In this document: positions 15,606-49,959 of the stretch, piece by piece | Layout: the number at the start of each line of letters is the position of its first letter | How positions within the stretch are numbered: position 1 is the first letter of the stretch | Assembly (NCBI GenBank): GCA_965215715.1 | Contig: OZ244129.1 | Coordinates: forward strand, 1,364,994-1,428,993 | Reading direction: 5' to 3' | Source: Hyphomicrobiales bacterium | GTDB lineage: Bacteria; Pseudomonadota; Alphaproteobacteria; Rhizobiales; HXMU1428-3 | Length of the DNA stretch: 64,000 bases | Notes under the pieces: model-generated | What the model was told of the DNA's origin: nothing | The model's database searches: none | Seen by the model: only the letters and a program-made list of their open reading frames with translations | Translations under genes and position numbers: made by a program

Positions 15606-15664
15606 TTAAAAGAGAATTAACAATAACCCCTTGAATCTAATTGATTTCGTTAAGAAATTATTAA
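15606..15664. promoter_or_regulatory. Two CtrA-type boxes upstream of the omp gene
   Basis: TTAA-aagagaa-TTAAC (15606..15621) and TTAA-gaaatta-TTAA (15650..15664), 120-180 bp upstream of the omp start. Confidence 0.6.
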
Positions 15665-35955: not shown

Positions 35956-36130
35956 TCTTTCACCCTCTTCAAGCTATACGTTACTTTATGCCTGGCAAGA
36001 ACAAACTTGCAATTGTTCTGTCCTGCAACTCTTCATTGATTAAATCTCTTTGCAAGCTTTATAAGCGACCCCTTCGCCAAAATCTAGAGCCAACTTAAAG
36101 CAACCCATTTGATGCCTGGAAACCAACGTG

Positions 36131-36146
36131 TTAACCATTTGTTAAC
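36131..36146. promoter_or_regulatory. CtrA-type box
   Basis: (G)TTAA-ccatttg-TTAAC; full consensus on both strands. Confidence 0.65.
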
Positions 36147-46761: not shown

Positions 46762-46941
46762 TTAGAGCATTGTCACATTGTTTTGAATTCAAAGTCATGC
46801 TCTATCTTCTTGTTTATGCGTGTCTTTTTTCTTGGCGCTTTAGATTGCCCACCAACAACCGCTTTCTTGGCGCTTTAGATTGCCCACCAACAACCGCGCT
46901 ATTTCACAAAACCGGTACCACTTTTGCGCGACACGCACTAG
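46762..46941. repeat. BRU-RS/RIME-like repeat, modules A+B, carrying an internal 2 x 35-bp tandem insert
   Basis: TAGAGCAT..ATGCTCTA, then GCGTGTC, then (TTTCTTGGCGCTTTAGATTGCCCACCAACAACCGC)x2 at 46828..46897, then CACAAAACCGGTACCACTTTTGCGCGACACGCACTAG. Confidence 0.88.
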
Positions 46942-48947: not shown

Positions 48948-49778
48948 TTAAGCTTCTATCATTGTCGTTGCGACAATTGAATAAAGGTCTGTCCAGGCTT
49001 GGCGGACCTCATCGGTTAACGCTGGCCCTAAGCCTTGCTCGAATGTCCACATTAAGGCTTCAGCCACATGAACATAATGCTCATCTACAACGCCGTAATC
49101 TTTATGACGCTTGCCTAAATCTTGGACAATCGGCACCACTTTTTCAGGTGCGCGCAAGCTGTTAACCAAAACTTTTAAGGCTGCCATAAGCTTCTTCTTT
49201 TGCTCTGACAAATCCTCTGGAAACAGAGCGCTCAAGGACGGTTCAATTTCAAACAAACGTTGATAAAACAAATCAGCAGCTTGGTCTGAAATTCCATCTA
49301 CAAGGGCAAAGCTATCTTCGATTAAAGTAAGTTGATGCTCACTCAGTCCTAAAGCCCCGACTTGTTGGGGGGCTTCTTCTTTTACAATAGGCTCTGGGAC
49401 ATCTTGGTGATCTGGCAACTCAGGATATGATATGTTGTCTGAAGTATCAGCTAATTCTTTCACTAAAGTATCAACATTACTGCCAAGTGAGTTCACATGA
49501 AAATTTAATGTTTTTAAAATTTCGGAGATTTCTTCGGTTGCCTCTTTGGTCTGTTCGGCCAAAACTTTTACTTCACCGGCAACAACGGCAAAGCCTTTGC
49601 CACTTTCACCAGCACGTGCCGCTTCAATTGTTGCGTTAAGAGCCAACAAATTTGTCTGCCTGGTAACAGCATGAATTTGAGAGGCAACACCAGATACGCG
49701 ATCAATTTGCTCCTTTAAACTGGAGACCTCACCTTCACTATCTTTGAGTGTTTTTTGCAATCCAAGAGAAAGAGGCAT
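48948..49778 (-). CDS. Soluble MCP signalling-tip domain fused to C-terminal globin
   Basis: [34 protein letters not shown]; globin with LFYQRLF (B10 Tyr), SALF (CD1 Phe), EQKKKL (E7 Gln), LGKRH (F8 His). Confidence 0.88.
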
Positions 49779-49959
49779 ATTTTATCCATCAATGTTGTCG
49801 GTAGAATCATTGTTTTCGTGGCATTTTTAGACTCAAAACAAATGACCACACGTAATAGGTGTCTGACTCACGTAAACAAACCCTTAAAAACTGTCTGTAT
49901 GGGCTCATTTTGATCGGTATTATTGTGCCTTAAAGGTTGAAAAATATGTTTAAAGCGGC

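What the first reader, a model, noticed from the sequence alone, without database searches (positions are those of the whole stretch)
48948..49778. Inverted globin-coupled chemoreceptor: bare MCP tip first, flavohaemoglobin-type globin last
Seen: only the conserved signalling hairpin tip with short arms (no TM, HAMP or recognisable methylation region), a Pro/acidic linker, then a globin with B10 Tyr, CD1 Phe, E7 Gln and F8 His. An in-frame stop a few codons upstream of the ATG rules out a simple N-terminal extension, and I saw no frameshifted remnant. Established: HemAT-type sensors have an N-terminal sensor globin and a C-terminal MCP domain; this residue set is typical of Vgb/flavohaemoglobin NO/O2-handling globins. 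Inference: a minimal O2/NO-responsive array component or adaptor, or a globin delivered to chemoreceptor arrays.
Basis: partly seen in the sequence, partly recalled or inferred. Interest (0 to 1): 0.65.

Follow-up and report, generated by a model that had tools for sequence, protein, structure and literature searches.

The report
Mini chemoreceptor tip tethered to haemoglobin
A real, well-conserved 276-residue protein joins only the kinase-docking tip of a bacterial chemotaxis receptor to an oxygen-binding haemoglobin domain through a floppy linker; it is most likely a stripped-down gas or redox sensor (or a haem carrier) for the chemotaxis machinery, a design I could not find described in print.

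Summary
Window 48948-49778 (-) encodes 276 aa with three parts. Residues ~5-114 form an MCP signalling hairpin of about 16 heptads, with no TM, HAMP or methylation region. Residues ~115-146 form a Pro/acidic disordered linker. Residues 147-276 form a 3/3 globin with Tyr B10, Phe CD1, Gln E7 and His F8. The nearest structure is Hell's Gate globin I (TM 0.95).

It is not a truncation. Full-length orthologues sit in the same gene neighbourhood (UDG - gene - MsbA-like ABC) in five Hyphomicrobiales genomes. dN/dS is 0.04-0.2 in both domains and about 1 in the linker.

"Inverted HemAT" is the wrong frame. The globin belongs to the flavohaemoglobin/HGbI lineage, not the sensor (protoglobin) lineage. 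The same tip and globin also occur in other arrangements:
- the opposite order;
- with two globins;
- as tandem tips;
- at the C-terminus of a full-length Methylobacterium MCP;
- split into adjacent genes.

Best reading (about 0.5): an adaptation-less soluble haem sensor that docks into CheA/CheW arrays by its tip. The globin would act by tethered docking or oligomerisation, not through a continuous helix. I could not test for che genes in this genome because the genome search was shut. This is a new variant of a known kind, of moderate to high interest.

The parts
48948..49778 (-). Complete gene for the 276-aa tip-linker-globin protein (stop codon 48948-48950)
   Evidence: ORF list. Pfam finds MCPsignal plus Globin. 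Syntenic full-length orthologues are 58-76% identical. Whole-gene dN/dS is 0.12-0.21.
49437..49766 (-). Residues 5-114: MCP signalling hairpin of about 16 heptads (about 57 residues before and after the U-turn at E58). It holds the protein-interaction region only and has no methylation helices.
   Evidence: Pfam match covers profile positions 15-123/172. Gapless alignment to the T. maritima TM1143 tip and to the 90-aa TM14 fragment of the CheA/CheW/receptor complex 4JPB. AF2 helix at 5-114. dN/dS 0.04-0.12.
49560..49658 (-). Residues 41-73: invariant tip core [33 protein letters not shown]
   Evidence: 25 of 33 positions are invariant in 31 sequences that share as little as 37% overall identity. 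This stretch cross-matches the tips of about 18 other MCP genes in the source runs at 80-88% DNA identity.
49341..49436 (-). Residues 115-146: Pro/Glu/Asp/Gln-rich disordered tether
   Evidence: pLDDT <50 at 117-135. Length and sequence vary among orthologues (alignment A1). dN/dS 0.9-1.8, i.e. unconstrained.
48951..49340 (-). Residues 147-276: 3/3 globin of the flavohaemoglobin/HGbI lineage (Y172 B10, F186 CD1, Q193 E7, K196 E10, H225 F8)
   Evidence: PDB phmmer hit 3S1I/3UBC at E 1.4e-26. Foldseek TM 0.95. Conserved pocket residues. dN/dS 0.07-0.20.
49782..49784 (-). In-frame TAA two codons upstream of the ATG
   Evidence: Read directly from the sequence.
49848..49887 (-). Conserved upstream block TTAAGGGTTTGTTTACGTGAGTCAGACACCTATTACGTG, 70-109 nt before the ATG. 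It is a probable promoter or operator; the regulator is unknown.
   Evidence: TTAAG..TTT.TTTAC is invariant in six orthologous upstream regions that otherwise share 54% identity. The spacing is TTAA-N8-TTAC, so it is not a CtrA box.

Best explanation
The gene encodes a soluble, minimal haem-based chemoreceptor.

The N-terminal ~110 residues fold into the antiparallel hairpin that forms the tip of every MCP. As a dimer this gives a short four-helix bundle. The hairpin retains only the protein-interaction region, which makes trimer-of-dimer contacts and binds CheW and the CheA P5 domain. Through it the protein plugs into, or nucleates, a chemosensory array.

The C-terminal domain is an HGbI/Vgb-type globin that binds haem through His225. 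Tyr172(B10) and Gln193(E7) would stabilise a diatomic ligand (O2, possibly NO or CO), or the haem would report redox state.

The two domains are joined by an unconstrained, disordered tether of about 30 residues. The family also works in either domain order and as two separate polypeptides. The haem signal therefore cannot travel down a continuous helix as in HemAT. It most likely acts through ligand-dependent docking of the globin on the bundle or baseplate, or through globin dimerisation that clamps or releases the open end of the short bundle and so biases CheA activity.

There are no methylation helices, so any adaptation must come from neighbouring receptors or be absent, as with E. coli Aer.

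Shown: the anatomy, conservation, purifying selection, family architectures and fold. Inferred: haem binding, array docking, kinase control and the docking/oligomerisation mechanism.
For: 1. Real and selected. Synteny with full-length orthologues holds in L011, L001, L002, L003 and L005. dN/dS is 0.04-0.12 for the tip, 0.07-0.20 for the globin and about 1 for the linker.
2. The tip keeps the conservation typical of MCPs: 25 of 33 core positions are invariant. It is 79% identical over that core to T. maritima TM1143. It aligns without gaps to the 85-90-residue TM14 fragments crystallised with CheA-P5/CheW (4JPB, 3UR1), so a hairpin of this size is enough for docking.
3. The globin pocket is intact and the fold matches O2-binding HGbI.
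4. The same globin clade is a sensor-type appendage of ordinary receptors:
   - Methylobacterium L010 = TM-HAMP-full MCPsignal-globin;
   - P0177 = full MCPsignal-globin, and P0171 = globin-PAS-MCP.
5. Split versions exist:
   - Ignavibacteria L022 has an MCP gene, a 43-nt gap, then a 145-aa globin gene. L034 has an MCP ORF of the same length (501 aa) directly before its globin match and looks the same, but I did not read its ORFs.
   - A Sphingomonas parapaucimobilis plasmid has a globin gene overlapping the start of a 253-aa MCP gene.
6. Precedents for O2-related or other sensor domains C-terminal to the MCP domain: DcrH hemerythrin and Tlp1/Aer PilZ.
7. In the four runs that hold the window, one other MCP-tip contig has a depth close to that of the window organism. 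This hints at a second, ordinary MCP in the same genome.
Against: - Whether this genome has CheA/CheW or flagellar genes is unknown. The genome search was shut. No che gene lies in the 27 window ORFs I annotated.
- No che gene lies within 10 kb of the family gene in 17 other contexts. Seven of these have Pfam-annotated gene lists; the rest were checked only by synteny and a weak tblastn with E. coli CheW.
- The hairpin (about 16 heptads) is shorter than the shortest recognised MCP class (24H). It has no adaptation region.
- A disordered linker evolving neutrally is a poor conduit for allostery.
- The same globin clade also forms pure multi-globin proteins with up to 14 repeats. That looks more like storage, buffering or enzymatic use than sensing.
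- The closest orthologue (L011) has Asn for the proximal His and Val for Phe CD1. Haem may therefore be dispensable in at least one lineage.
- I have no expression data. No RNA run holds the gene.
Confidence: 0.5

Rival explanations
1. Array-tethered globin, not a sensor. The tip is only an address tag that places a high-affinity O2-binding or NO-dioxygenating globin at the chemosensory array. There it would act as a local O2 buffer, an NO/ROS filter or a protector of other haem or flavin sensors, without itself controlling CheA.
For: - The tether is disordered and under no constraint, and domain order is irrelevant.
- One or two globins can be attached.
- The same clade forms 5-14-globin strings with no signalling domain.
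- The Tyr B10/Gln E7 pocket is that of Vgb, flavohaemoglobin and HGbI, which handle O2 and NO.
Against: - There is no reductase domain or conserved reductase neighbour to turn over a dioxygenase.
- The same globin sits directly (linker of about 5 residues) on the C-terminal helix of a full-length Methylobacterium MCP, which is a sensor-like position.
- One globin per receptor dimer subunit is a small buffering capacity.
Confidence: 0.2
2. Regulatory decoy. The free tip competes with full-length receptors for CheW/CheA, or caps trimers of dimers. It would thin or disassemble arrays, or sequester kinase, depending on the oligomeric or ligand state of the globin. This is array remodelling rather than moment-to-moment sensing.
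For: - The tip is complete but lacks everything needed for adaptation or membrane anchoring.
- From my own knowledge (not tested here), soluble Tsr signalling-domain fragments can inhibit or activate CheA in E. coli.
- Tip-only and tandem-tip proteins without any sensor exist (P0222, P0256, P0210).
Against: There is no direct evidence. Strong purifying selection on the globin pocket argues that ligand chemistry matters. This reading is indistinguishable from the best explanation without kinase assays.
Confidence: 0.12
3. Function unrelated to chemotaxis. The hairpin serves only as a dimerisation or trimerisation scaffold for the globin, or binds a partner other than CheA/CheW, as the E. coli chemoreceptor-like Tls sequesters FlhDC.
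For: - No che or flagellar genes appear in the annotated window genes or in 17 other contexts.
- One globin-tip gene lies 65 nt downstream of a CHASE hybrid kinase with an Hpt domain (L081).
- Tls shows that MCP-like proteins can have other outputs.
Against: - A plain coiled-coil scaffold would not keep 25 of 33 tip residues invariant, identical to those of working MCPs, across sequences sharing 37% overall identity.
- MCP genes are usually orphans, so the absence of che neighbours says little.
- Long forms occur in Methylobacterium, a genus I know from memory to be chemotactic (not tested here).
Confidence: 0.12
4. Truncated or decaying remnant of a full-length MCP-globin gene.
For: Long TM-HAMP-MCP-globin proteins exist (L010, 38.6% identical over 311 residues). 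The gene's GC3 (35%) is below that of its neighbours (about 50%).
Against: - More than 110 proteins have the same short layout.
- Orthologous starts agree and synteny is conserved.
- There is an in-frame stop upstream.
- dN/dS is far below 1 in both domains.
- The two arms of the hairpin are balanced in length (about 57 and 57 residues).
Confidence: 0.02

Closest known systems
HemAT and other MCP-type globin-coupled sensors (B. subtilis, H. salinarum, A. tumefaciens Atu1027)
   Same: A soluble protein that combines a haem globin with an MCP signalling domain. The presumed input is a diatomic gas and the presumed output is CheA control.
   Different: HemAT has an N-terminal sensor (Protoglobin, PF11563) globin that runs helically into a full-length, methylatable signalling domain. 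This protein has a flavohaemoglobin/HGbI-type PF00042 globin, placed C-terminally on a disordered tether. Only about 16 heptads of the signalling domain remain.
MCPs with a sensor domain C-terminal to the signalling domain: D. vulgaris DcrH (hemerythrin), Azospirillum Tlp1/Aer (PilZ), H. pylori TlpD (CZB; from my own knowledge)
   Same: The sensor or modulator domain follows the MCP hairpin. DcrH is an O2-binding example. L006 even carries a NIT-MCP-PilZ receptor 2.4 kb from its orthologue of this gene.
   Different: Those are full-length receptors with adaptation regions, and mostly with HAMP and TM segments. Their appended domain is not a globin.
Hell's Gate globin I (HGbI, 3S1I) and HGbRL (globin-Roadblock/LC7) of Methylacidiphilum infernorum
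   Same: These are the nearest solved globins (E 1.4e-26 and 1.1e-21; TM 0.95 for HGbI). They share the Tyr B10/Gln E7/Lys E10/His F8 pocket and lack a D helix. HGbRL shows that this lineage can be a putative sensor module.
   Different: HGbI is a single domain. HGbRL has the globin at the N-terminus and a Roadblock output. Neither is linked to chemotaxis proteins.
T. maritima TM14 receptor tip fragments used in CheA-P4P5/CheW co-crystals (4JPB, 3UR1)
   Same: Engineered hairpins of 85-90 residues that align without gaps to residues 19-88 here. They show that a tip of this size can bind CheA/CheW.
   Different: They are laboratory constructs. This protein is a natural, selected one with a sensor attached.
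E. coli Aer (methylation-independent aerotaxis receptor) and the bipartite C. jejuni CetA/CetB (from my own knowledge)
   Same: Aer signals without methylation sites. CetB (the sensor) and CetA (the MCP) are separate polypeptides, like the globin|MCP gene pairs in L022 and Sphingomonas.
   Different: They use FAD-PAS sensors and membrane-anchored receptors of normal length.
Globin-tip 'mini globin-coupled sensor' noted earlier in this scan (e1-1171617)
   Same: The same two modules and the same floppy tether, in the opposite order. That agent drew the same conclusion and also found no published description.
   Different: Domain order differs. The C-arm is only about 44 residues in that form.

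Membership tests
Methyl-accepting chemotaxis proteins (Pfam MCPsignal PF00015) | Conserved hairpin tip (protein-interaction region) with the E-A-A-R-A-G-E-x-G-[KR]-G-F-A-V-V-A core | tested here: met
   Pfam E 7.6e-28. The core is invariant in the family. Gapless alignment to TM1143, Tsr and TM14 tips.
Methyl-accepting chemotaxis proteins | Methylation (adaptation) helices flanking the flexible bundle, and membership of a heptad class from 24H to 64H | tested here: not met
   Only profile positions 15-123/172 are matched. The helical hairpin is 110 residues, about 16 heptads. The recognised classes stop at 24H. Using the Tsr alignment offset (query 25 = Tsr 358), residue 1 falls near Tsr 334. 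From my own knowledge, that is inside the Tsr methylation sites at 297-311 and 493-502.
Methyl-accepting chemotaxis proteins | Works with CheA/CheW encoded in the same genome | not testable with these tools
   The genome search and the fetch from genomes were shut. There are no che genes in the annotated window genes or in 17 other contexts. A contig at similar depth carrying another MCP tip gives a weak hint of a second MCP.
Globin-coupled sensors (HemAT type) | N-terminal sensor-family (protoglobin-like) globin followed by a C-terminal transmitter | tested here: not met
   The globin is C-terminal. It matches PF00042, not Protoglobin, even at E<=1. Its nearest structures are HGbI, neuroglobin, flavohaemoglobin and Vgb. 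HemAT carries PF11563.
Flavohaemoglobin-lineage single-domain-type globins (HGbI/Vgb group) | 3/3 fold without a D helix; Tyr B10, Gln E7, Phe CD1, His F8 | tested here: met
   Y172, Q193, F186 and H225 align to HGbI Tyr29, Gln50 and the proximal His. TM 0.95 to 3S1I. These positions are conserved in 31 sequences.
Flavohaemoglobin (Hmp) NO dioxygenase | C-terminal FAD/NAD(P)H reductase domain | tested here: not met
   The NCBIfam Hmp model is matched only over its N-terminal 135 of 399 positions, at 61 bits against a cut-off of 432. The protein ends at the globin H helix.
Haem protein (any globin) | Actually binds haem b and a diatomic ligand | not testable with these tools
   This is a sequence inference only and needs UV-vis spectra of the purified protein. 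The L011 orthologue has Asn at F8.

The most novel reading that the evidence does not exclude
The ~90-110-residue MCP tip is a portable, autonomously folding CheA/CheW-docking tag. This family would then reveal a second way of feeding signals into chemosensory arrays. A haem domain on a free tether (or even a separate polypeptide) would act in trans on the bundle or baseplate through ligand-dependent docking or oligomerisation. No continuous-helix transmission, HAMP or methylation would be involved. The window protein would be the natural minimal chemoreceptor.
Probability: 0.3. Interest if true: 0.8.

Novelty: new variant of a known kind. Interest (0 to 1): 0.6.

Why it matters
Work on chemoreceptor signalling is dominated by long, membrane-bound, methylatable receptors. 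How ligand state reaches CheA through about 200 A of coiled coil is still debated. A naturally selected receptor reduced to the kinase-docking tip plus one soluble, spectroscopically readable haem domain would be a very simple system for asking what is minimally needed to control CheA.

It would also show that gas or redox inputs can enter arrays by tethered docking. It extends haem-based aerotaxis sensors beyond the sensor-globin (HemAT) and PAS-haem (Aer2) types to the flavohaemoglobin/HGbI lineage. The family is widespread in marine and soil Alphaproteobacteria and is currently annotated only as 'hypothetical', 'hemoglobin-like flavoprotein' or 'methyl-accepting chemotaxis protein'.

Tried and rejected
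1. Truncation or pseudogene: rejected on synteny, orthologue length, the upstream stop and dN/dS.
2. CtrA-box control. The conserved upstream block looked like TTAA-N7-TTAAC, but the spacing is N8. TTAA-N7-TTAC has zero matches in the window. Rejected. I also found no convincing FNR/FixK or sigma-54 pattern by eye.
3. che genes nearby:
   - Pfam/NCBIfam on 27 window ORFs found only housekeeping, envelope and transport genes, including an MsbA-related exporter, a UDG and a PRK09039 peptidoglycan-binding protein.
   - Seven Pfam-annotated contexts show no CheA/CheW.
4. Whole-genome che search: not possible, because the genome search was shut.
5. Expression: no RNA run holds the gene. The holder runs are DNA-like assemblies in which the window organism is a minor member.
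6. Exact look-ups of the window protein and of P0177 found no record.
7. Literature: nine full-text searches and six papers gave no description of an MCP tip with a C-terminal PF00042 globin. The Collins 2014 review on cytoplasmic chemoreceptors was not held.
8. It is no evidence of motility.

Full report
WHAT IS THERE

The minus strand of window 48948-49778 carries a 276-codon ORF that starts at ATG. A TAA two codons upstream (49782-49784) closes the frame. Pfam finds two domains:
- MCPsignal at residues 8-116 (E 7.6e-28), covering only profile positions 15-123 of 172;
- Globin (PF00042) at residues 171-273 (E 1.7e-14).

No HAMP, PAS, Protoglobin or other sensor family is listed, even at E<=1. 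NCBIfam gives only partial matches, all far below cut-off. These are to the tip of various MCP equivalogs and to the first 135 positions of flavohaemoglobin Hmp. There is no hydrophobic segment: the highest 19-residue hydropathy mean is 0.93.

STRUCTURE

An AlphaFold model built on a 31-sequence family alignment has mean pLDDT 85. It shows a helical stretch at 5-114, a disordered stretch at 117-144 and a confident globin at 147-275. Foldseek's best match is oxygen-bound Hell's Gate globin I (3S1I; TM 0.95, rmsd 1.2 A). Neuroglobins, flavohaemoglobin, Vitreoscilla Hb and plant non-symbiotic Hbs follow.

By sequence, the best solved relatives are HGbI (E 1.4e-26) and the globin domain of HGbRL (E 1.1e-21). 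The gapless alignment to HGbI gives these correspondences:
- Y172 on Tyr29(B10);
- Q193 on Gln50(E7);
- K196 on Lys53(E10);
- H225 on the proximal His;
- F186 on the CD-corner Phe.

THE MCP PART

The U-turn lies at E58, with about 57 residues on either side. That makes roughly 16 heptads, below the shortest recognised chemoreceptor class (24H; PMC6943060). The core Q41-L73 ([33 protein letters not shown]) has these properties:
- it is 79% identical to the tip of T. maritima TM1143;
- it aligns without gaps to the 85-90-residue TM14 fragments that were co-crystallised with CheA-P5 and CheW (4JPB, 3UR1);
- by the Tsr alignment (query 25 = Tsr 358), the polypeptide begins near Tsr 334. From my own knowledge this is about the level of the glycine hinge and well inside the methylation sites.

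The hairpin is thus the protein-interaction region alone. It has no adaptation helices and no CheR-tethering pentapeptide; the protein ends ...TMIEA.

NOT A TRUNCATION

A word-indexed search of 5.8 billion proteins returned 120 best hits. Almost all carry PF00015 plus PF00042, and most are 276-330 residues long. An exhaustive search of 1.84 billion cluster representatives found 150 clusters at E<=1e-30.

In a species-representative genome collection, full-length matches come from the following:
- Hyphomicrobiaceae MAGs (76% and 71% identity);
- Methyloligella MAGs (about 60%);
- other Hyphomicrobiales.

In five of these loci the gene sits in the same place as in the window, between a UDG-family gene and an MsbA-related ABC exporter. 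Conserved neighbours extend more than 10 kb on both sides.

Against these orthologues, dN/dS is 0.04-0.12 for the hairpin, 0.07-0.20 for the globin and 0.9-1.8 for the linker. Both domains are under strong purifying selection. The linker is a free tether whose length varies from about 20 to 60 residues. In a 31-sequence alignment that reaches down to 37% identity, 25 of the 33 tip-core positions are invariant. So are F171, Y172, F176, P180, Q193, G222, Y228, G229 and W262. F186 and H225 are conserved in at least 90% of sequences.

THE FAMILY IS MODULAR, SO "INVERTED" IS THE WRONG WORD

I built HMMs for the two modules and scanned the 262 proteins collected. The sample is biased by how it was gathered. 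The architectures were:

| Architecture | Count |
|---|---|
| tip-globin | 114 |
| globin-tip | 33 |
| tip-globin-globin | 13 |
| globin-globin-tip | 13 |
| globin-tip-tip | 3 |
| tip-tip-globin | 1 |
| tip-tip / tip-tip-tip (no globin) | 5 |
| pure globin strings | up to 14 repeats |

Sequences are shown, and Pfam results. In the short globin-tip forms the arm after the turn is only about 44 residues. The irreducible unit is therefore a hairpin of about 90 residues.

The same globin clade is also found in these settings:
- On a full-length Methylobacterium receptor (TM, HAMP, complete MCPsignal, globin). Here the linker is only about 5 residues.
- In P0177 (complete MCPsignal, then globin) and P0171 (globin-PAS-MCP).
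- Split into adjacent genes:
  - In an Ignavibacteria MAG (L022), a 501-aa MCP gene is followed after 43 nt by a 145-aa globin gene.
  - The Kapaibacterium locus L034 has an MCP ORF of the same length just before its globin match and looks the same, but I did not read its ORFs.
  - On a Sphingomonas parapaucimobilis plasmid, a 139-aa globin gene overlaps the start of a 253-aa soluble MCP gene.

These fusion and fission patterns argue that the globin and the MCP signalling domain work together.

HOW IT MOST LIKELY WORKS

Shown:
- an intact MCP tip with receptor-grade conservation;
- an intact O2-type haem pocket;
- a neutral, disordered tether;
- indifference to domain order.

Inferred:
- The hairpin dimerises into a short four-helix bundle. 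It enters or nucleates CheA/CheW arrays through the usual tip contacts.
- The globin binds haem and a diatomic ligand, or reports redox state.
- The signal reaches the kinase by reversible docking of the globin on the bundle or baseplate, or by ligand-dependent globin dimerisation. HGbI is a dimer, and HGbRL undergoes large open/closed movements (PMC4476040).
- The signal does not travel by helix-borne transmission as in HemAT.
- Adaptation would be absent, as in E. coli Aer, or borrowed from neighbouring receptors.

I put about 0.7 on array docking and about 0.5 on true kinase-controlling sensing. The main rival is an array-addressed globin that buffers O2 or removes NO. The multi-globin strings and the free tether favour that reading. 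The tightly fused long receptors, the lack of any reductase and the split globin|MCP pairs argue against it.

WHAT COULD NOT BE SETTLED

The available evidence is as follows:
- None of the 27 window ORFs I annotated is a che or flagellar gene.
- No che gene lies within 10 kb in 17 other contexts. This says little, because MCP genes are usually orphans.
- There is one indirect hint. I laid the contigs of the four runs that hold the window on the tip-coding stretch at 80% identity. About 18 other MCP tips appeared. Nearly all came from a far more abundant organism, with depths of about 170/170/520/4000. One had depths of 5.0/2/8.6/83, close to the window organism's 2.5/3.7/8.4/95. This is consistent with a second MCP in the same genome, but it is weak evidence.
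- No RNA data cover the gene.

COMPARISON WITH WHAT IS KNOWN

A 2026 review of aerotaxis receptors lists these types (PMC13401364):
- N-terminal sensor-globin receptors (HemAT, GCS-Bh, Atu1027);
- PAS-FAD and PAS-haem receptors;
- C-terminal PilZ (Tlp1, Aer of Azospirillum);
- C-terminal hemerythrin (DcrH).

It does not list any receptor with a C-terminal globin or any tip-only receptor. Globin surveys define chimeric 3/3 globins as N-terminal (flavohaemoglobins and GCS) (PMC1457004 and PMC7475203). A 2018 in-silico paper noted Bac_globin-PAS-MCP receptors only (PMC6194562).

Earlier agents of this scan independently met related designs. One found the sister globin-tip form (e1-1171617). Others found globins tethered to Aer2-type receptors, CheW and CheA. 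I treat these as leads, not evidence, but I re-found the globin-tip form myself.

I therefore file this as a new variant of known kinds: haem-based aerotaxis transducers, and MCPs with C-terminal sensor modules. It fails membership of HemAT-type GCS, of flavohaemoglobins and of any recognised MCP heptad class.

VERDICT

- Observation: confirmed.
- Novelty: new variant of a known kind.
- Interest: 0.6.

Noticed in passing
L011:6614-7462 (closest genomic orthologue, Hyphomicrobiaceae MAG IP29b_bin.21): The orthologue is 76% identical and sits in perfect synteny, but it has Asn for the proximal His F8 and Val for Phe CD1. Its tip is 88% identical and its globin dN/dS is still 0.15. This could be a haem-free globin (as in RsbR) or a MAG error.
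   Followed up: partly
window 46770-46940: The intergenic stretch between the PRK09039 peptidoglycan-binding gene and the ABC exporter is a short multi-copy repeat. Contig depth there is 3-7 times that of the flanks. An alternative joint skips 88 nt (46829 to 46918) with 15 other letters in between, in three runs.
   Followed up: no
window 15606-15664 and 36130-36146: There are four exact TTAA-N7-TTAAC (CtrA-box) matches against 0.78 expected. They include a convergent pair upstream of the glmM-like gene and a palindromic TTAACCATTTGTTAAC at 36130. These are likely real CtrA sites of a dimorphic alphaproteobacterium.
   Followed up: no
P0121 (2461 aa), P0122, P0123, P0131, P0156: These are giant proteins made of 6-14 tandem HGbI-like globin domains and no other recognisable domain. 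They belong to the same globin clade as the window protein.
   Followed up: partly
P0222 (206 aa), P0256 (223 aa), P0210 (309 aa), P0138, P0213: These are proteins made only of two or three tandem MCP tip hairpins, or tandem tips plus a globin. The second tip has EADRAG/EANRAG instead of EAARAG. They look like single-chain bundles and recall the double-signalling-domain receptor DosM.
   Followed up: partly
L081:7110-10768: In an alphaproteobacterial genome (GCA_048262255.1) the globin-tip gene lies 65 nt downstream of a CHASE-HisKA-HATPase-REC-Hpt hybrid kinase, next to a divergently transcribed RR-PP2C gene and STAS gene.
   Followed up: no
L022:9092-11077 and L085:7998-9178: These are split versions of the module. 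L022 has an MCP gene, a 43-nt gap, then a globin gene (Ignavibacteria). L085 has a globin gene overlapping the start of a 253-aa MCP whose tip is degenerate (ARAESGASAFAVVA), on a Sphingomonas parapaucimobilis plasmid.
   Followed up: partly
window 48948-49778 versus its neighbours: The gene's GC3 is 35%, against 49-52% for the flanking genes. Whole-gene GC is 43% against about 50%. The locus is nevertheless syntenic across the family.
   Followed up: no
runs X1, X2, X3, X25: The window organism is a minor member (about 1.5-3%) of the sequenced cultures or samples labelled 'organism A'. The dominant organism carries many MCP genes. The species label of these runs may therefore not be that of the window.
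   Followed up: partly
It matches flagellar MotB models only through the OmpA domain. The A-like partner has just a faint ZorA hit. The pair is conserved next to the ABC exporter in all orthologous loci.
   Followed up: partly
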